From Sulfolobales archaeon (GTDB lineage: Archaea; Thermoproteota; Thermoprotei_A; Sulfolobales; NBVN01), in contig JAWBTQ010000013.1 of the NCBI GenBank assembly GCA_038841535.1, positions 1 through 26,456 of the forward strand: DNA of 26,456 bases, given 5' to 3'. A program made the translations under genes and the position numbers. Position 1 is the stretch's first letter. Each line of letters begins with the position of its first letter. Below are positions 1 to 14,183 of this stretch, piece after piece. Under the pieces are notes generated by a model. The model was not told the DNA's origin. It made no database searches and worked only from the letters and a program-made list of their open reading frames with translations.

Positions 1-65
1 AGATCAGGTGAAGCTACTCTAGTGAGTAAGCACAGAGGGTTCTTAATAGTTAAATCTTCTAGTAG

Positions 66-1274
66 CTAACTAGGAGAAGACTGCTTTAAGCAGTTAACGA
101 AGACGTCGTAGGGTCCGTTAGTACCTACAGCTGTTACGGCACCGTAGTACCTCGCAGCACTATACCCCAGAGACTTCAAGCACTCAACTACCTCCTCAAC
201 TCTGGGAGCATTAACCTTCAGCCTGCGCGCCATCTGGACTACGTCGTAAGGAACTAGAGCCCCACCTTCTGCTTCAGCTACCTGGTACTCGAGTAGCTTA
301 GAGAGCTTACTAGCAGAGCTCGTATAGGAGAAGCTAGGTAGTGCTTCCCTAGCTCTAAGAACGAGTTCTCTAGAGACCAGTCTATCTATCCACATAGGGC
401 CTACGTAGTCCAACTTACCACCACACACCCTACAGCTAGCTTCATCGAACCAGTGAGTATACTCTCTAAACCCACAGACGTTGCAGTACTTCAAGTAACC
501 TACATTCTTAGATAGCATAGCGTCAGCCGCTGTCGCACCCCTCCCCACTCTGTAGAAGACCCTGATGAAGTAGCCACCTATAGCGTAAGCAACAGGCTCT
601 ATAAACCTATCCAGCTCACTAGCGACTCTCGCAGCATATCCGACTAGAACCCGCAGGGCAATGAGCTTCGGGACATCGGTCAAGGTGAGATGACACCAGT
701 ACCTCCTACTCCCAGCCCACGGTCTCGCACCCGAGAGAGAAGCTAAGTCTGTCGCAGTAACACCCAGGAAACCCCCACTCCTTACAGCCCAGGAAGCTGC
801 CCTAAGGAACGGTGCCGGAGAACCATACGGGTCGACGTCGATTACGTCGAGTTTCTCGCCTGACTTCTTGAGTCTATACATAACCACGTTAGCATCATCG
901 TTTATAGCTTCAACTACTCCCTGAAGATCGTTCAGAGATATGTTCCTAACGATCAGGTCGTAAGCCTTCTTATCGATATCGTTGGCAAAGCACTTAACTA
1001 CGCCAAAAGCTTCTACACAGTAACGCAGAGCCCTAACGCCGCAACCAGAGAGAGCATCTAGTACTACAGCGTTCCGCAAGTCTAGAAGAGACACTACTAA
1101 AACACTGAAGTCTCTACTAAAAACAGCTGCCGGATTATAGAACACCGGTGACCAAGCAGGCTCGTATACTCCATCCGGCCTTAAAAACTTGCTTAGATCG
1201 TAGAGTAGTAGCCGAACCCTACCCTCAGTAAGCTCTACTAGCTCCCCAATGCTCGACACCTCCACAGGCCCCAC
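66..1274 (-). CDS. trm1: tRNA (guanine-26-N2)-dimethyltransferase Trm1
   Basis: 402-aa ORF with PVFYNP, RDFS, SAM-binding LDALSGCGVRALRY, DVIDVDPYGSP, VTATD, a CxxC...CxxC zinc motif and GPMW, all typical of Trm1. Confidence 0.95.
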   Translation of the reverse strand: MGPVEVSSIGELVELTEGRVRLLLYDLSKFLRPDGVYEPAWSPVFYNPAAVFSRDFSVLVVSLLDLRNAVVLDALSGCGVRALRYCVEAFGVVKCFANDIDKKAYDLIVRNISLNDLQGVVEAINDDANVVMYRLKKSGEKLDVIDVDPYGSPAPFLRAASWAVRSGGFLGVTATDLASLSGARPWAGSRRYWCHLTLTDVPKLIALRVLVGYAARVASELDRFIEPVAYAIGGYFIRVFYRVGRGATAADAMLSKNVGYLKYCNVCGFREYTHWFDEASCRVCGGKLDYVGPMWIDRLVSRELVLRAREALPSFSYTSSASKLSKLLEYQVAEAEGGALVPYDVVQMARRLKVNAPRVEEVVECLKSLGYSAARYYGAVTAVGTNGPYDVFVNCLKQSSPS

Positions 1275-5460: not shown

Positions 5461-5640
5461 TTCACACTACACCGGCATCAACTATATGATGCGGAGTGTG
5501 CGGTAATATGCGGAATAAGCAGAAATTGCTCGAGTAGAAGCACCATAGAGTAGAGAGTATAGGGAGTAAAGACGATGTTATTGCTTAAACTTGCTGCAAT
5601 GCTTTTAAGTAACGTAAGCAACCAAATTTACGGGGTAGAC

Positions 5641-5943
5641 TTGGGGAAAAGAAAGGAAGTCAACGAGTCCGATGACAGTAGGAGAGAGTCGAGGCTTAGT
5701 CTAGATTTTAAAGTGGTTTATGAAGATCAAGAAGTACTCGTGATTAGAGCACCTACAGAAGATGAGCTGGTGAACATAATACTGAGACTACTAAACGAGA
5801 AGCCTATGAACATTAAGGAGATACACCACTACCTACCTGGAATAGCTAGTGAGGATAAGATAAGGAAAACACTAACTAAGTTAGTTAATGAAGGCAAGGT
5901 CTACGTTCTCGAAGACGGGCGCTTCATAGTAGTCGGAAGATAA
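5641..5943 (+). CDS. Small winged-helix (ArsR-like) DNA-binding protein
   Basis: ILRLLNEKPMNIKEIHHYL..SEDKIRKTLTKLVNEGKV..DGRF wHTH pattern. TTG start at 5641 is preferred over the ORF-track start 5575 because of an upstream GGGGT RBS and TTTTAAG TATA at 5603-5609. Confidence 0.8.
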   Translation: MGKRKEVNESDDSRRESRLSLDFKVVYEDQEVLVIRAPTEDELVNIILRLLNEKPMNIKEIHHYLPGIASEDKIRKTLTKLVNEGKVYVLEDGRFIVVGR

Positions 5944-5962
5944 GCTGTTGAGGTGTAGAGCG

Positions 5963-6268
5963 TTGTCCGACCATCAGTCTTTTTCGCAAAGTACTTCATC
6001 GAAGCAGCTTACGGAGAGAGCTAAGTGGGTTGAAAAAATCATAAAGTCGGCTAAGCAGACCTACAAGCTTTGTCCCTACTTCGACAAGAAAACGAGCTCT
6101 TGCTTTATTAAGATGATGAAGTCTCAAAAGAAGGCTAAGTGCGATAGAGAAGGCAAGTTTGATACGTGCCCAGTGTTTATCGACTTTATAGGGGAGCAAT
6201 ACGACAGGCTAATGGAAACTCAAAAGGTGTTGCCTCAGGACTTTCGCGACCTCCAGCTCATTATATAG
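5963..6268 (+). CDS. Hypothetical 4-Cys (probable metal-binding) protein
   Basis: GAGGTG RBS at 5950-5955 before TTG 5963; C-x9-C-x12-C-x8-C (CPYF...CF...CDREGKFDTCPVF); starts 19 nt after the wHTH gene stop. Confidence 0.75.
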   Translation: MSDHQSFSQSTSSKQLTERAKWVEKIIKSAKQTYKLCPYFDKKTSSCFIKMMKSQKKAKCDREGKFDTCPVFIDFIGEQYDRLMETQKVLPQDFRDLQLII

Positions 6269-6524
6269 ACCATATAGACGCAGCCCCCACCGCAGCCCAC
6301 CGATTTTACGCACTCTCCACACGCTCTCCTTACGTACTGGTAGACCTCGATCTGTGCTTAGCGTTCTCCCCGTTAGGTTCGGAATGCCGTGGTCACCGCA
6401 CTTGAGGGCTGTAAACTAACTACAACAAAAACAGCATCCATAGTAAGAGAAAAACTACTGTACTCTGTGTGCGTCAGAGAGTGAGAGCTATTGTTTGCGC
6501 AGTCTTTCACGTCCTTTACGGACT

Positions 6525-6753: not shown

Positions 6754-6933
6754 GTCTGTCTAGAGGCTGACGGGAAGGCCGAGATCTCTAACCAAAATCG
6801 TTTGGTGCGAACTTGCGCGGGGTCTAAGACTGTTTGCCGAGCAACGAGATTCTTATCTATGCTTTCGCCTCTCACTGAAGCACGTACTTGCGACTTATAA
6901 CCCTGGAATAGCTAGTAGGGTATTGGACGTAGT

Positions 6934-6985
6934 AGTGATGAGAAGAGGGTCTGGTGATTTATGAACGCTGCTGGAAATGCTGATC
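6934..6985 (+). ncRNA. Probable box C/D guide sRNA overlapping the 5' end of the next ORF
   Basis: Box C GTGATGA (6935-6941), 12-nt guide, D' GTGA (6954-6957), degenerate C' TTTATGA, 15-nt guide, box D CTGA (6980-6983); TTATAA at 6895-6900. Confidence 0.5.
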
Positions 6986-7446
6986 TCTCCGAGCAAGTGC
7001 GGAGTAAGAACGCTTACTCACAAATCGTTCTTATTTTAAGTACGTGGTTAGCTCTCTATGGAGTCCTGCTTACAACGAGAGTTCTCAACAGATTTGGAGC
7101 CGTGAGTAGTAGAGAGCTATACGATGCCGCAGCTCTCAGTTCGTTAACTATATTTATTGCCGTTCTAGTGATTACGAGTCTACTTAAGGTAAAGACAAGA
7201 GAGACCGCAATAACCTCCTCAGCACTACTAGTAGTTACATACTACGCTAGACTTCTCCACTTACTTCTGTCAGAGAGAGGTAGCGCGTTGATACTACCTC
7301 TATTCACAATCGTGAAGTTCGAGGGGACTGCGTCGGGAACTATAACTCTAGACCTAGGTCAAATAGGTCTCTATACTCTACTTTACTTCCTGATTAAAGA
7401 CCCGTTGATAAGAACCTACCTAAGAAGAACCTTTTCCCTCAAGTAG
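6961..7446 (+). CDS. Hypothetical integral membrane protein (3-4 TM segments)
   Basis: 161-aa ORF with several hydrophobic stretches; GGTGA precedes the ATG; alternative GTG start at 6997. Confidence 0.75.
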   Translation: MNAAGNADLSEQVRSKNAYSQIVLILSTWLALYGVLLTTRVLNRFGAVSSRELYDAAALSSLTIFIAVLVITSLLKVKTRETAITSSALLVVTYYARLLHLLLSERGSALILPLFTIVKFEGTASGTITLDLGQIGLYTLLYFLIKDPLIRTYLRRTFSLK

Positions 7447-7569
7447 CTTAAAGCTTTTGCGCTAACTGCTGGAAGAAGCCGAGATCGGTCGCTGAGTTCA
7501 GCTGGAAACCTACACTTCACTACGGACTATCACCACTTAAGTGGTTTACGTATCTCTCGCTACAAATAT

Positions 7570-8949
7570 ATGTCTAGTGAACAGCGTGAAGCGCGGGAAC
7601 TAGTGTTGCTTGATGAACTAATTAGGAAGTGTTCCAGAAACTCTATATGCGTAGTCGAAGGCTTTAAGCTACAGCTAGATAGAGGGTATAGTCCAGAACC
7701 CGAGGAAGTCAGGTATGTCTCGGCCTTAATGGGGGGACCTACGAAGAAAGTTGATACCTTAAAGAGCACGTATATTGACGTGTTTACTCGCTTACTAGAA
7801 AAGAACTGCTACTACTTCAACAGTAAGTCTTTATGCATTTACTCTTGGAGCCCTAGAGTGCCGGTTAGGTACTTCCCAGTATCTCTGGATGCTACTGGAA
7901 CAATTATCGCTCTCGACGAGGATGGAGTGTCTCTATTAGCGTACCCGACTCACAGGACCTACGACCTAGAAGGCAGGGGTGTGGAGCTCCCCGACCCCGA
8001 GAGAATGAGGGTAGTTGAGGTAACGTCTCGAATTGACGGATACCAGATTACTTTCTACTTCAATCCCTTACTTGATAAGTGGATTCCAGCTACTAGGTAC
8101 GCTCTCCACAATATGAGGTATATGAAAAGTAGAGTAATAATGGAAGACTTAGGTAATATAACTAATCCTTACGCAGCTGTAGCAGACCATATAGCAAGTA
8201 GCAAAGGCCTCTACGATAGAATCGAGCACTTAAGGGGGTGGACCCTCACATTCGTTCTCGAGGCCCCGGAACCCGCAATAGTTAAACCTAACGTAGAGCT
8301 ATACGACTACGAAAGCTTCAGGCTCTACCTAGTAAATGCACGCAACCCTGAGGGACACCTACTAACGACATACGAGTCTTCCCAGCTAGTGAGTTGGGAC
8401 CACGTTCCAATAGAAAAAGTTGAGGTAAGCACCGCACCAGAGCTCAAGAAGTTCGTAGAAATGTGGAGCTGGGACATATACCACAGGTCTAGATTCGTAA
8501 GGTTTCTATCGCAGGACCAGGTAAGACCATATACTATTGAGGTGAGATCTAAGCTTTACGAAAACGCTGTATACATTAAGCACTCGTCAGACCCTAAGTC
8601 ACTCCTGATCTTAGCTTCGCACGGGCTAGATGATAAGGCAGTAGAGCTACTAATAGACTACAGAGACATAAAGAGTGTTGGTAAAGAGATATGCGAGCTC
8701 TATAAAACCCTCAGAAAACTCGTCTCAGAAACTCTAAGTCTACCTATTCTCGAGGAAGCTATGAGAGATATGAGAGTACCTAGAGACCTCTTCTGGGAGC
8801 TCGAAAAAGCTAGGCGCTCTGGAGATATAGAGAGGTTCTCTAGAAAGCTATCTCTAGCTCTCGCAAGTGAGAACATATACGATACGAGGGAGAAGCTCAA
8901 GGCATTTATAGCGTCTTTAACTAGGCACCTAGAGTCGCGAGCGGCCTGA
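7570..8949 (+). CDS. RNA ligase 1 (T4 Rnl1/TS2126)-like protein with degenerate catalytic motifs
   Basis: Motif order LDATG..LLAYPTHRTYD..VTSRIDGY..WIPATR..WTLTFVL..LYLVNAR..HRSRFV..IEVRS..Y plus a helical C-terminal domain parallels Rnl1 (ExRG, KFFN, EKxDG, TxxxE, LLxxR, EGxV, KxK). Confidence 0.7.
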   Translation: MSSEQREARELVLLDELIRKCSRNSICVVEGFKLQLDRGYSPEPEEVRYVSALMGGPTKKVDTLKSTYIDVFTRLLEKNCYYFNSKSLCIYSWSPRVPVRYFPVSLDATGTIIALDEDGVSLLAYPTHRTYDLEGRGVELPDPERMRVVEVTSRIDGYQITFYFNPLLDKWIPATRYALHNMRYMKSRVIMEDLGNITNPYAAVADHIASSKGLYDRIEHLRGWTLTFVLEAPEPAIVKPNVELYDYESFRLYLVNARNPEGHLLTTYESSQLVSWDHVPIEKVEVSTAPELKKFVEMWSWDIYHRSRFVRFLSQDQVRPYTIEVRSKLYENAVYIKHSSDPKSLLILASHGLDDKAVELLIDYRDIKSVGKEICELYKTLRKLVSETLSLPILEEAMRDMRVPRDLFWELEKARRSGDIERFSRKLSLALASENIYDTREKLKAFIASLTRHLESRAA

Positions 8950-12681: not shown

Positions 12682-12806
12682 GGCGGATCCCAACTTGAGG
12701 GGGCTGCGAGGCCTCGCGGACCTCACTGCCCCCCCAACGCGGCCGGCTTAACTTCCGGGATCTGACGAGTCCGGGTGTTTCCCGACCGCTATGGTCGGGA
12801 TCCGCC
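12682..12806 (-). rRNA. rrf: 5S ribosomal RNA, unlinked from 16S/23S
   Basis: Minus strand GGCGGATCCCGACCATAGCGGTCGGGAAACACCCGG..CCCGGAAGTTAAGCCGGCCGCGTT..GTTGGGATCCGCC; the termini form a 13-bp helix I. Confidence 0.97.
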
Positions 12807-13060: not shown

Positions 13061-13271
13061 TCACCGCAGAGTGTGCGAGTTCTTGTAGCTCTCAGCTATA
13101 GCCAAAAACTATTCTCTATATTAAAAGCGACAGAACTAGTGACAGCGGTCTGGGAATAGCGATAGCTCTTGAGGTATGGATATGGGAGTCATCGGGAGTT
13201 TTAGCTGGGATTAGTAGGATACGTGCGGCTTTATAAGATACTACAGTGTTTATAGAGTTTTTCTGGTGAAA

Positions 13272-14183
13272 ATGACTAAGCTAAATCTTCCTCCACCTAG
13301 TTGCCGTGAGAATTGCGACGTTGACCTTGCTGCTGAGGAGTTCTTAGCAAACCTTGAAGCGTCTGGAGCCTCGCAGAGTACCGTTAAAGCGCATAGATAC
13401 GCTATTAAGGACTTCATCGAGCATGTTGGCAAGAAATTCGCAAACGAACTAACTCCACAGGATTTTACATCTTGGAGGATTAAGCGCTTAAAGGAGGGAT
13501 TCAAGTACAGTAAGGGCAGTAAGGAGTCAAGTAGCTGGACTCTATACTACTACTCTCTCTACGTGAGGTCGTTCCTAGCGTGGTTAGGGGTTCTTAAGGA
13601 ACCCCTTCCTTCAGTCAGTAAACCTCGGAGGAGAAGACTGCATACTACACTAACTCGTGACGAAGTAAAGAAGCTTGTAGGTGCATCAAGAGACGTTATT
13701 GACGTACTGATAGTGTCCCTTCTACTGGAAACCGGTCTGAGAGCTAGAGAAGCCCTATCCCTAAGGAAGTCAGATGTCGACCTCGATAAGAGGGAGATCA
13801 GAGTACTTAACGCTAAGTTTGGTGAGAGTAGGATAGTCTTCGTAGGTCCACTCACGTATGAAGTTCTATCGAGGTACCTGCCTCTACTAAGAGATGATGA
13901 TAGAGTGCTCCAGCTATCGTACACAGGTCTATATAAGAGATTAAAGAGTCTAGCTACGAGAGCAGGAGTAGATGTGAGGAAGGTCAGACCACACGTTTTT
14001 AGGCACACCTTCGCTACAGACTCTATAAGGCGGGGCATAACACTTCCAGCTCTACAGCTTCTCCTCGGCCATAAAGACATAAAGACTACTCAGATATACC
14101 TCCACTTGGCGGTAGAAGACATCAAGAACATGTACTTCAAAGTGTTCTACAGCAACCAAACATCCCAGGAGTCAACTGCGTAG
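13272..14183 (+). CDS. xerA: Tyrosine recombinase, XerA-like
   Basis: N-terminal core-binding domain (GASQSTVKAHRYAI) and catalytic ETGLR, AK, HVFRH, LGH..TTQIY; GGTGA precedes ATG 13272 (alternative GTG 13266). Confidence 0.88.
   Translation: MTKLNLPPPSCRENCDVDLAAEEFLANLEASGASQSTVKAHRYAIKDFIEHVGKKFANELTPQDFTSWRIKRLKEGFKYSKGSKESSSWTLYYYSLYVRSFLAWLGVLKEPLPSVSKPRRRRLHTTLTRDEVKKLVGASRDVIDVLIVSLLLETGLRAREALSLRKSDVDLDKREIRVLNAKFGESRIVFVGPLTYEVLSRYLPLLRDDDRVLQLSYTGLYKRLKSLATRAGVDVRKVRPHVFRHTFATDSIRRGITLPALQLLLGHKDIKTTQIYLHLAVEDIKNMYFKVFYSNQTSQESTA

What the first reader, a model, noticed from the sequence alone, without database searches (positions are those of the whole stretch)
7570..8949. Full-length RNA ligase 1 homolog with a systematically rewired active site (candidate pseudo-ligase or new chemistry)
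Seen: an intact 459-aa ORF. Established knowledge, aligned by eye from recall: its motifs run colinear with T4 Rnl1 and Thermus phage TS2126 Rnl1, including the helical C-terminal domain, yet each catalytic position differs. ExRG becomes DATG (T109), KFFN becomes RTYD (R129), and the adenylylated motif I Lys (EKxDG) becomes SRIDG (R154). The motif III Glu becomes V229, motif IV EG becomes RS (R306), and motif V KxK becomes EVR (E324/R326). R154 is encoded by CGA (8029-8031), at least two changes from a Lys codon, so it is not a single error or fresh mutation. Inference: the motif IV E-to-R and motif V K-to-E charge swap could form a salt bridge filling the ATP/metal pocket. The protein may be a virus-derived ligase fold kept as an RNA-end-binding scaffold or sensor. 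It lies downstream of a C/D-type sRNA and a small membrane protein on the same strand.
Basis: partly seen in the sequence, partly recalled or inferred. Interest (0 to 1): 0.78.

Follow-up and report, generated by a model that had tools for sequence, protein, structure and literature searches.

The report
Lysine-less archaeal RNA ligase 1 relative
This archaeal gene encodes a well-conserved protein with the shape of phage T4 RNA ligase 1 in which every residue needed for the ligase reaction has been swapped for another, equally conserved one, so it probably binds RNA ends or nucleotides rather than joining RNA.

Summary
Pfam, NCBIfam and PDB sequence searches see nothing. A confident AlphaFold model (pLDDT 91.5) matches T4 Rnl1 best (Foldseek E 2.9e-12; VIA Z 19.0, rmsd 3.2, 234 residues).

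Lys-bearing archaeal relatives that do carry PF09511 bridge the protein to T4 Rnl1 (hhalign prob 98.7 and 98.9). These alignments place T109/R129/R154/V229/R306-S307/E324 at T4 R54/K75/K99/E159/E227-G228/K240.

In 59 clusters of the family the replacements are fixed: R154 56 of 56, S307 58 of 58, E324 57 of 58, R306 56 of 58. dN/dS is 0.08-0.20. The Arg forms make one clade on a long stem.

The family occurs in 72 of 351 genomes of the class. It has no viral copy and no conserved neighbour.

Best reading: a neofunctionalised Rnl1 offshoot that cannot make lysyl-AMP and serves as a phosphate, nucleotide or RNA-end binder. A rewired catalytic site is not excluded. No paper on it was found.

The parts
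7570..8949 (+). ORF of 459 aa plus stop: Arg-form (lysine-less) Rnl1-like protein. The true start may be GTG 7603 or TTG 7606.
   Evidence: The ORF is listed. It has 34 homologues. dN/dS is 0.08-0.20. Homologue N-termini are shown and the start-region codons.
7624..8568 (+). Residues 19-333: adenylyltransferase-type domain with the Rnl1-type N-terminal sub-domain.
   Evidence: VIA-align matches model 19..333 to T4 Rnl1 9do4_B 0..249 with Z 19.0, rmsd 3.2 and 234 aligned residues. Trl1-LIG 9qw7_B gives Z 16.4. Foldseek gives 2c5u_A at E 2.9e-12.
7888..7899 (+). D107-A-T109-G110, at the place of T4 E52-C-R54-G55 (ExRG). The ATP gamma-phosphate Arg is lost.
   Evidence: Alignment. Position 109 is R in 0 of 54 clusters with a residue. 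The role of R54 is taken from passages of PMC6379707.
7954..7965 (+). R129-T-Y-D, at the place of T4 K75-F76-F77-N78. The basic residue is kept (R or K) and the two Phe are lost.
   Evidence: In the family position 129 is R 41 and K 15 of 56 clusters.
8026..8040 (+). Motif I: S153-R154-I-D156-G157, at the place of T4 T98-K99-E-D101-G102. Arg replaces the nucleophilic Lys.
   Evidence: R is found in 56 of 56 clusters. Across 35 DNA copies there are 35 Arg codons of five kinds.
8089..8151 (+). Residues 174-194: motif Ia basic residue R176 (T4 K119), then an 18-residue beta-hairpin insertion beginning with invariant H180-N181.
   Evidence: R176 is placed opposite K119 through. The insertion relative to the Ignicoccus-type family is seen. 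H180 is conserved in 55 of 56 clusters and N181 in 56 of 56. The same insertion is present in the Lys-bearing G089-type relative.
8248..8262 (+). Motif III strand T227-F-V229-L-E231. V229 stands at the place of T4 E159 (ribose and metal contact).
   Evidence: Position 229 is V or I in 54 of 58 clusters and is never acidic.
8485..8502 (+). Motif IV: R306-S307-R-F-V-R311, at the place of T4 E227-G228-Y-V-A-V. The metal-binding Glu is replaced by Arg.
   Evidence: hhalign shifts the register by one residue. R306 is conserved in 56 of 58 clusters, S307 in 58 of 58 and R311 in 40 of 58.
8539..8559 (+). Motif V: E324-V-R326-S327-K-L-Y330, at the place of T4 K240-I-K242-S243-D-W-Y246. The first Lys is reversed to Glu and the second position is variable.
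   Evidence: E324 is conserved in 57 of 58 clusters. Position 326 is variable. S327 and Y330 are each conserved in 58 of 58.
8569..8946 (+). Residues 334-459: all-helical C-terminal domain with a calculated pI of 8.7 and invariant R422 and K426.
   Evidence: Folded alone, the model has pLDDT 93.3 and eight helices. No clear fold match was found; the T4 Rnl1 C-domain gives Z 5.3. The domain aligns to the C-domain of the Ignicoccus-type family.

Best explanation
The gene encodes a member of an undescribed, chromosomally inherited family of Thermoproteota. The family descends from Rnl1-type ATP-dependent RNA ligases and has lost the whole apparatus for lysine adenylylation.

Shown:
- The fold is the Rnl1-type adenylyltransferase domain plus a helical C-domain.
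- The nucleophilic Lys is Arg.
- Both metal-binding Glu are replaced, by Val or Ile and by Arg.
- The first alpha-phosphate Lys is Glu.
- The gamma-phosphate Arg is gone.
- These replacements are fixed under purifying selection in one clade.

Inferred:
- The protein cannot form ligase-AMP and so is not a classic ligase.
- The former ATP and metal pocket now carries guanidinium groups where the Lys and the Mg-water cluster used to sit (R154, R306). Retained basic residues (R129, R176, often R311) and a family-specific His-Asn (H180-N181) lie beside them.
- Such a site would hold a phosphate-bearing ligand without metal. The most likely ligand is an RNA terminus (5'-phosphate, 5'-triphosphate or cyclic phosphate) or a nucleotide. 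The basic C-domain would supply RNA contacts, as the C-domain does in T4 Rnl1.
- It would therefore act as an RNA-end or nucleotide reader, protector or adaptor rather than as a sealing enzyme.
For: Fold:
- The AlphaFold model has pLDDT 91.5.
- Foldseek's best hits are T4 Rnl1 entries at E 2.9e-12 to 7.4e-12, followed by Trl1-LIG and Rnl3.
- VIA-align gives Z 19.0 to T4 Rnl1, above Trl1 at 16.0-16.4 and Rnl5, Rnl2 and Rnl3 at 11-13.
- The ESM Atlas neighbours carry PF09511.
- PHROG 562 (RNA ligase / tail fibre attachment) matches weakly at E 0.0044.

Homology chain.

Substitutions and their conservation. R154 uses five Arg codons and S307 uses both Ser codon boxes.

Roles of the lost residues (Lys nucleophile; motif III and IV Glu hold the catalytic metal through water; motif V Lys pair on the alpha-phosphate; R54 and K75 on the gamma-phosphate; F76 on adenine) come from passages of PMC6379707.

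Selection: dN/dS is 0.083-0.204 in 14 pairs.

One origin: the Arg forms are one side of a branch with SH-aLRT 100 and a stem of 1.6-2.0 changes per site. This holds for 76 Arg rows against 17 others and for 29 against 18.

The gene is housekeeping-like and not mobile:
- 72 strong single-copy matches in 351 genomes of the class.
- Varied core-gene neighbours.
- No PADLOC match.
- No viral copy.

Presence in RNA libraries: contig pieces of a near strain in run X1, and 8 reads at 99% or more in X4, all in one orientation.
Against: - No binding or activity data exist, and no residue-level structural superposition could be made because coordinates are not returned. Pocket geometry, the position of H180 and any R306-E324 pairing are therefore inferred.
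- The whole protein is not basic (pI 6.4; the NTase domain 5.9).
- Invariance of polar residues at a former active site suits catalysis as well as binding.
- No conserved gene neighbour or fusion points to RNA metabolism.
- RNA-library support is thin, and DNA carry-over is not excluded.
- Two of the 72 strong genome matches carry an in-frame TAG (G112, G115), and one locus copy is split into two ORFs (L032).
Confidence: 0.55

Rival explanations
1. The site is rewired, not dead. The invariant constellation R154, R306, E324, E150, E234, D156, R176 and H180-N181 would catalyse a different reaction on RNA ends or nucleotides. This could be a metal-independent phosphoryl or nucleotidyl transfer, with a nucleophile other than the motif I lysine, such as H180.
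For: - The replacement residues are as conserved as a catalytic site: R154 56 of 56, S307 58 of 58, E324 57 of 58, H180 55 of 56, N181 56 of 56. E150 and E234 are family-specific invariants.
- D156-G157, T152 (T or S in 55 of 56 clusters) and R311 (40 of 58) are kept. Their Trl1 counterparts contact adenine or lie in motif I (passages of PMC6379707).
- A long stem followed by strong constraint is the pattern of neofunctionalisation.
Against: - Both acidic metal ligands of the superfamily are lost.
- As far as I recall, no member of this superfamily is known to use Arg or His at this site.
- H180 lies in an insertion that a Lys-bearing relative also has, with Trp in place of His, so the insertion itself is not tied to new chemistry.
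- Nothing here tests activity.
Confidence: 0.25
2. The ligase fold is kept only as a structural scaffold or chaperone for protein partners, with no nucleic-acid or nucleotide ligand. Two precedents are recalled: T4 gp63 (Rnl1) promotes tail-fibre attachment independently of ligation, and the poxvirus processivity factor carries a ligase-like domain.
For: - The T4 record annotates RnlA as 'RNA ligase 1 and tail fiber attachment catalyst'.
- A poxvirus polymerase-complex chain appears among the fold matches (8wpf_B, Z 8.2).
- The NTase domain is acidic (pI 5.9).
Against: - A scaffold would not need invariant charged residues exactly at the former catalytic positions.
- No conserved neighbouring gene suggests a partner.
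- The motif Ia basic residue and the basic C-domain are kept.
Confidence: 0.12
3. It is a decaying ligase gene: a recent pseudogene-like loss of function in this lineage, or a sequencing artefact.
For: Two strong genome matches carry an in-frame TAG (G112, G115), and one locus copy is split (L032).
Against: - The ORF is intact.
- 34 homologues were found down to 45% identity, and 72 genomes across at least nine GTDB families hold a strong match.
- dN/dS is 0.08-0.20.
- The same replacements occur in every clade.
- Synonymous codon turnover occurs at R154 and S307.
Confidence: 0.02

Closest known systems
Bacteriophage T4 RNA ligase 1 (RnlA/gp63; Rnl1 family, PF09511; PDB 2c5u, 5tt6, 9do4)
   Same: - Best structural match: Z 19.0, rmsd 3.2, 234 residues; Foldseek E 2.9e-12.
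- Same N-terminal sub-domain and the same order of motifs.
- D101-G102, R182, S243 and Y246 counterparts are kept.
- An all-helical C-domain sits at the same place.
   Different: - K99, E159, E227, G228, K240, R54, F76 and F77 are all replaced.
- There is an 18-residue hairpin insertion after motif Ia.
- The Pfam model does not match.
- The C-domain fold match is weak (Z 5.3).
- It is a cellular archaeal gene, not a phage gene.
Lys-bearing Rnl1-like proteins of the same archaeal class: the Ignicoccus-type family (A3; one source names it 'RNA ligase [Ignicoccus hospitalis]') and the G089-type proteins
   Same: - They are the closest sequence relatives outside the family: hhalign prob 98.7 and 94.9.
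- They share the Cys pair C80/C89 and the C-domain.
- The G089-type also shares the hairpin insertion.
- They are chromosomal genes of Thermoproteota.
   Different: - They keep R, KFFN, KxDG, FEL, EG and KxK and so look catalytically competent.
- To my knowledge they are themselves uncharacterised.
- In both trees they fall on the other side of the long stem.
- Three genomes hold both a Lys form and an Arg form (G056, G058, G111).
Fungal tRNA ligase Trl1 ligase domain (Rnl6; PDB 6n67, 6n0t, 9qw7)
   Same: - Second-best fold match: Z 16.0-16.4.
- It has the same Rnl1-like N sub-domain.
- The spacing T-x-[K/R] in motif I, and an Arg five residues after the first motif IV residue, match Trl1's TLK and EGFVIR (passages of PMC6379707).
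   Different: - Trl1 has the full catalytic set and a different C-domain.
- It is fused to kinase and phosphodiesterase domains.
- No fused form of the Arg family was found (weak evidence).
Snurportin-1 m3G-cap-binding domain (PDB 1xk5), a nucleotidyltransferase fold without the catalytic Lys that binds an RNA 5' end. The role is recalled from the literature; the title is as listed.
   Same: It is a precedent for this superfamily's fold being reused as a non-catalytic reader of an RNA 5' end. It appears among the fold matches (Z 7.4, rmsd 4.2, 154 aligned).
   Different: - It derives from the capping-enzyme branch, not from Rnl1.
- It is eukaryotic.
- It has no sequence relation to this family.
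- Its cap ligand does not exist in archaea.

Membership tests
Rnl1 family of ATP-dependent RNA ligases (PF09511, T4 RnlA type) | Adenylyltransferase fold with the Rnl1-type N-terminal sub-domain | tested here: met
   VIA-align gives Z 19.0 to 9do4_B over model 19..333. Foldseek gives E 2.9e-12 to 2c5u_A.
Rnl1 family of ATP-dependent RNA ligases (PF09511, T4 RnlA type) | Match to the family's curated sequence model | tested here: not met
   Pfam gives 0 families at E up to 10. PHROG 562 matches only at E 0.0044. The link to PF09511 is indirect, through profile-profile alignment to PF09511-bearing relatives (prob 98.7).
Covalent lysine nucleotidyltransferases (ligases and capping enzymes) | Motif I KxDG with the nucleophilic lysine | tested here: not met
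   R154 aligns to T4 K99. Arg is found in 56 of 56 family clusters. Whether another Lys reaches the site could not be tested without coordinates.
Covalent lysine nucleotidyltransferases (ligases and capping enzymes) | Motif III and motif IV glutamates that hold the catalytic metal | tested here: not met
   V229 aligns to E159 and R306 to E227. Position 229 holds no acidic residue in 58 clusters. Residues 305-308 hold none in either alignment register.
Covalent lysine nucleotidyltransferases (ligases and capping enzymes) | Motif V KxK on the nucleotide alpha-phosphate | tested here: not met
   E324 aligns to K240 and is E in 57 of 58 clusters. Position 326 (K242) is variable, with K in 20 of 58.
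Rnl1 family of ATP-dependent RNA ligases (PF09511, T4 RnlA type) | Rnl1-specific N-sub-domain contacts to ATP (R54, K75, F76 of T4) | tested here: not met
   T109 stands for R54 (0 R of 54 clusters). A, T, S or P stands for F76. Only the K75 position stays basic, as R or K.
Rnl1 family of ATP-dependent RNA ligases (PF09511, T4 RnlA type) | T4-type all-helical C-terminal domain | tested here: inconclusive
   Folded alone, the C-domain has pLDDT 93.3. The T4 C-domain matches at Z 5.3, rmsd 3.7 and 100 aligned residues, rank 11, within the noise for helical bundles. Foldseek gives nothing at E 0.001 or better.
Rnl1 family of ATP-dependent RNA ligases (PF09511, T4 RnlA type) | Formation of ligase-AMP and sealing of 5'-PO4/3'-OH RNA ends | not testable with these tools
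   This needs a biochemical assay.
Rnl3 family (PF09414, Pab1020/MthRnl type) | Match to PF09414 and the Rnl3 dimerisation and C-domains | tested here: not met
   There is no Pfam match. The fold match is lower than to Rnl1 (Z 11.3). True Rnl3 genes exist elsewhere in the class and co-occur with the Arg family in 8 genomes.
Non-catalytic NTase-fold readers of RNA 5' ends (snurportin-1 type) | NTase fold lacking the Lys and binding an RNA 5'-terminal structure in the former nucleotide pocket | tested here: inconclusive
   Lack of the Lys is shown. Fold similarity to 1xk5 is only Z 7.4. Binding cannot be tested here.

The most novel reading that the evidence does not exclude
The family is an enzyme with a rebuilt active site in the ligase fold. 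Guanidinium groups (R154, R306) would replace the lysine and the metal, and a family-specific histidine (H180) or a bound water would act on an RNA terminus or nucleotide. This would be metal-independent phosphoryl or nucleotidyl chemistry never seen in the covalent nucleotidyltransferase superfamily. It might underlie an archaeal RNA-end processing step that currently has no assigned enzyme.
Probability: 0.2. Interest if true: 0.9.

Novelty: new variant of a known kind. Interest (0 to 1): 0.62.

Why it matters
All characterised members of the ligase and capping-enzyme superfamily work through a lysyl-NMP intermediate. This is a whole clade of hyperthermophilic archaea that keeps the Rnl1 fold under strong selection after exchanging the lysine, both metal-binding glutamates and the phosphate-clamping lysine for other invariant residues.

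Lys-bearing sister proteins survive in the same class, and in three genomes they coexist with the Arg form. This gives a natural before-and-after pair. It can be used to ask how a ligase pocket is repurposed, either into a metal-free reader of RNA ends or nucleotides or into a new catalyst.

It also assigns a fold and a testable hypothesis to a family annotated only as 'hypothetical protein' and invisible to Pfam and NCBIfam. It further uncovers Lys-bearing Rnl1-like ligases in Thermoproteota that Pfam also misses.

Tried and rejected
- **Sequence libraries.** Pfam, NCBIfam, PDB sequence search (single protein and A1 profile) and PADLOC gave nothing for the protein.
- **Related loci with A2.** The search for related loci failed for lack of a conserved stretch. 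It was rerun with A1.
- **Synteny.** No neighbour is shared across the family. glmS is downstream in 6 of 35 loci and the membrane ORF upstream in 2 of 35. Other sub-clades sit beside a ribosomal S13 operon with DUF72, desulfoferrodoxin, an FkbM methyltransferase with TFIIB, PEBP, or an alpha-mannosidase.
- **Fusions.** No longer relatives were found (the tool itself calls this weak evidence).
- **Viral origin.** The Arg form has 0 relatives among 107 pattern matches in viral contigs. The Lys-family query finds 303 ordinary viral Rnl1 genes at 24-40% identity.
- **Replacement of Rnl3.** By my count, strong PF09414 matches (E below 1e-16) occur in about 86 of 351 genomes. They occur in 8 of the 72 Arg-form genomes. 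Within one genus the two are complementary (g18: 2 against 4), and in another they co-occur (g35: 3 of 4). There is no clear rule, and related genomes are not independent.
- **Own genome.** RtcB is present. No PF09414 or PF09511 match was found, but the genome is only 83.8% complete.
- **C-domain alone.** No convincing fold match was found.
- **Reads.** Runs X2 and X3 gave 0 reads, which is no test.
- **Tree.** The careful tree search did not finish in time. The quick trees were used instead.
- **Papers.** Six searches found no description of a lysine-less Rnl1 family. Only listings and abstracts were seen for those hits. Passages were read from PMC6379707, and a term search in PMC11494293 found none of the residue names. 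Supplementary files were not consulted.
- **Complex prediction.** It was not used, because the report makes no claim of protein binding.
Full report
**1. The observation**

The window holds an intact ORF at 7570..8949 on the + strand, 459 aa.
- DATG at residues 107-110
- RTYD at 129-132
- SRIDG at 153-157, with R154 = CGA at 8029-8031
- V229
- R306-S307
- E324-V-R326

The protein has no match in Pfam or NCBIfam at E up to 10. It has none among PDB sequences, either alone or as a family profile.

**2. The fold**

A family alignment was built from 31 of the 34 homologues found. The three partial sequences P0005, P0030 and P0034 were left out. This alignment gave an AlphaFold2 model with mean pLDDT 91.5 and pTM 0.86.
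- Foldseek against the PDB ranks three T4 Rnl1 entries first (E 2.9e-12 to 7.4e-12). Fungal Trl1 ligase domains, archaeal Rnl3, Naegleria Rnl5 and T4 Rnl2 follow.
- An independent all-against-all structural search puts T4 Rnl1 first. It scores Z 19.0, rmsd 3.2 A and 234 residues, matching model 19-333 to chain 0-249.
- Trl1-LIG scores Z 16.0-16.4. All other ligases score 13 or less.
- ESM Atlas neighbours by features and by structure are PF09511 clusters.

The covalent-nucleotidyltransferase fold of the Rnl1 kind, including its special N-terminal sub-domain, is thus well supported.

The C-terminal 126 residues were folded alone (pLDDT 93.3, eight helices) and give no convincing match. The T4 Rnl1 C-domain appears at rank 11 with Z 5.3, rmsd 3.7 and 100 aligned residues. 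That is within the noise for helical bundles.

**3. Residue equivalences**

An exhaustive HMMER search of 1.84 billion representatives found 17 relatives. The weakest informative one, P0050 (337 aa, E 6e-5), matches PF09511 above its cut-off (49.4 against 28.3 bits). It carries the full canonical motif set.

P0050's family has 16 proteins, all with PF09511 precomputed, and one is named 'RNA ligase [Ignicoccus hospitalis]' by a source. This family aligns as follows:
- to the Arg family with hhalign probability 98.7, E 2.4e-16, over 289 columns
- to T4 RnlA, taken from the annotated T4 record, with probability 98.85, E 4.1e-17
- P0050 also aligns directly to PDB 2c5u over the ExRG, KFFN and KxDG segments

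A joint MAFFT alignment of 81 family rows, 16 Lys-family rows and T4 RnlA gives these equivalences:

| This protein | T4 Rnl1 |
|---|---|
| D107-A-T109-G110 | E52-C-R54-G55 |
| R129-T-Y-D | K75-F-F-N |
| S153-R154-I-D156-G157 | T98-K99-E-D101-G102 |
| V229 | E159 |
| R306-S307 | E227-G228 |
| E324-V-R326 | K240-I-K242 |
| S327 / Y330 | S243 / Y246 |

Through, R176 corresponds to the motif Ia K119.

The one disagreement is that hhalign sets motif IV one residue later. No acidic residue exists at 305-308 in either register. TS2126 Rnl1 was not examined.

**4. What the lost residues do**

Passages of PMC6379707 describe the homologous Trl1 and T4 Rnl1 sites:
- The motif I Lys is the nucleophile.
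- The motif III Glu binds the ribose 2'-OH. Together with the motif IV Glu, it holds the catalytic metal through waters.
- The two motif V Lys contact the alpha-phosphate.
- T4 Arg54 and Lys75 contact the gamma-phosphate, and Phe76 contacts adenine. Arg54 and Lys75 are essential in vitro.

All of these except the basic character of position 129 are gone here.

Some features are kept:
- D156-G157
- T152 two residues before position 154, the spacing of Trl1's adenine-N6 contact in TLK
- R311 five residues after R306, the spacing of Trl1's adenine-N1 contact in EGFVIR (R in 40 of 58 clusters)
- R176, R258, S327 and Y330

**5. Conservation**

After collapsing the 81 rows to 59 clusters at 90% identity, the counts are:

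| Position | Residues found |
|---|---|
| 154 | R in 56 of 56 with a residue |
| 156 | D 55, E 1 |
| 157 | G 56 of 56 |
| 229 | V 35, I 19; N, S, M, L one each; never acidic |
| 306 | R 56, P 1, Q 1 |
| 307 | S 58 of 58 |
| 324 | E 57, D 1 |
| 109 | never R (0 of 54) |
| 129 | R 41, K 15 |
| 326 | variable |
| 180 / 181 | H 55 of 56 / N 56 of 56 (family-specific) |

Across 35 DNA copies, R154 is written with AGA 20, CGT 7, CGA 4, AGG 3 and CGG 1. S307 uses both the TCN and the AGY codon boxes.

Pairwise dN/dS (Nei-Gojobori) is 0.083-0.204 in the 14 of 16 pairs where dS could be estimated. This is a protein under purifying selection, not decay in one lineage.

Against full intactness, two strong genome matches show one in-frame TAG (G112, G115). 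One locus copy is split into two ORFs (L032).

**6. Distribution and origin**

In 351 genomes of the class, 79 have a match to the family profile:
- 72 are strong (E 1e-70 or better), single-copy and full-length. They are spread over at least nine GTDB families.
- Family f11 has none (0 of 47).
- The six genomes of family f8 match only weakly, through their Lys-bearing Ignicoccus-type gene.
- The remaining weak match, in G089, led to a 399-aa ORF that Pfam does not recognise. It carries ARG, TKFFN, VKLDG, FEL, EG and KFKS.
- The G089 protein also shares the Arg family's 18-residue hairpin insertion after motif Ia (hhalign prob 94.9, 322 columns).

Relatives of the G089 protein at 40-46% identity occur in G056, G058, G083, G085 and G086. 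More distant Lys forms occur in G111, G270, G277 and G278.

G056, G058 and G111 hold both a Lys form and an Arg form, so the two are paralogues there.

In quick maximum-likelihood trees the Arg forms are one side of a branch with SH-aLRT 100 and a stem of about 1.6-2.0 changes per site. This holds for 76 against 17 rows (five fragments dropped) and for 29 against 18 rows. One ancient transition followed by constraint is the simplest history.

No Arg-form relative was found in viral contigs (0 of 107 pattern hits). The Lys-family query finds 303 ordinary viral Rnl1 genes. The immediate ancestry is cellular, and a deeper viral origin of archaeal Rnl1-like genes was not tested.

**7. Context**

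Context gives no functional lead.
- glmS follows the gene only in the six closest of 35 related loci.
- The 161-aa membrane-like ORF precedes it only in two.
- Other sub-clades have unrelated housekeeping neighbours.
- There is no PADLOC match, and no longer, fused relative was found (weak evidence).
- Strong Rnl3 genes occur in 8 of the 72 Arg-form genomes and, by my count, in about 78 of the other 279. The pattern is complementary in one genus and co-occurring in another, so no rule can be claimed.
- The window's own genome (83.8% complete) has RtcB. It has no PF09414 or PF09511 match.

In metatranscriptome libraries, contig pieces of a near strain cover parts of the ORF in X1. In X4, 8 reads at 99% or more identity lie on the laid stretch, six or so within the ORF. 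All have the first mate on the minus strand, as expected for a + strand RNA in the usual stranded libraries. X2 and X3 gave no reads and are no test. This is thin support for expression.

**8. Mechanism**

*Shown:* the Rnl1 fold, the loss of all residues for lysine adenylylation, and the fixation of the replacements.

*Inferred:*
- The protein cannot form ligase-AMP.
- Two guanidinium groups (R154, R306) now stand where the lysine and the hydrated metal were.
- They are flanked by the retained R129 (or K), R176 and often R311, by new acidic invariants (E150, E234, E324), and by H180-N181 at the start of the hairpin next to motif Ia.

Such a site suits metal-free binding of a phosphate-bearing ligand. 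Given the ancestry and the basic C-domain (pI 8.7 against 5.9 for the NTase domain), the ligand is most likely an RNA terminus or a nucleotide.

My estimates for the four readings are:
- 0.55 for a non-catalytic reader, protector or adaptor of RNA ends or nucleotides
- 0.25 for a rewired catalytic site
- 0.12 for a pure protein scaffold
- 0.02 for decay

**9. Comparison with known systems and novelty**

The protein works from the Rnl1 scaffold but fails the defining tests of a covalent lysine nucleotidyltransferase. It should not be filed as an RNA ligase.

The nearest precedent in kind, recalled rather than tested, is snurportin-1. There a capping-enzyme fold without the lysine binds an RNA 5' cap (fold match Z 7.4).

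Six literature searches found no description of a lysine-less Rnl1 family. Sources call all members 'hypothetical protein'. I rate it a new variant of a known kind, of moderate to high interest. Pseudoenzymes are common. A whole clade with every catalytic residue exchanged for another invariant one, beside surviving active-looking paralogues, is an unusually clean case and is directly testable.

Noticed in passing
window 6931-6985 (+): There is a sub-threshold match to the C/D-box sRNA family sR20 (RF01140): 39.1 bits against gathering 44, E 1.9e-6 in a 1.4-kb search. It has a C box at 6935 and a terminal CTGA at 6980-6983. It overlaps the ATG at 6961 of the 161-aa membrane-like ORF, so that ORF may start further downstream. 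A metatranscriptome contig piece spans 6935-7438.
   Followed up: partly
L120:1277-2473 (G089:C36), L122-L126, L127-L130: These are Lys-bearing Rnl1-like ORFs in the same archaeal class. Pfam does not detect the one scanned, G089. They carry the complete canonical motifs. The G089-type shares the Arg family's hairpin insertion. Genomes G056, G058 and G111 carry both a Lys form and an Arg form.
   Followed up: partly
window 7630-7650 and 7807-7836 (residues C21, C27, C80, C89): The Cys pair C80/C89 is conserved both in the Arg family (C in 73 and 75 of 81 rows) and in the Ignicoccus-type Lys family (14 and 15 of 16), but not in T4. C21/C27 are conserved only in the closer sub-family. This may be a disulfide or a metal site in the N-terminal sub-domain.
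   Followed up: no
window 7561-7608: AAATATA lies directly before ATG 7570. Homologues begin at about residue 13. GTG 7603 and TTG 7606 are possible real starts, perhaps of a leaderless mRNA.
   Followed up: no
window 6000-6284: In the metatranscriptome contigs of run X1, the piece over the small ORF 5948-6268 has much higher mean word depth (97.7) than the pieces over the ligase-like gene (about 4). The ORF has no Pfam or PADLOC match.
   Followed up: no
window 12685-12802 (-) and 13266-14183 (+): A 5S rRNA gene (73.2 bits) lies a few hundred bases from a tyrosine recombinase ORF of the phage-integrase or Xer type (PF00589, E 4e-29).
   Followed up: no
window 5575-5943 (+): This 122-aa ORF has no Pfam match. 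It gives a weak PADLOC match to a CARF-type model (CARF3--CARF_TM, E 0.00082). It is conserved upstream only in the two closest loci.
   Followed up: no
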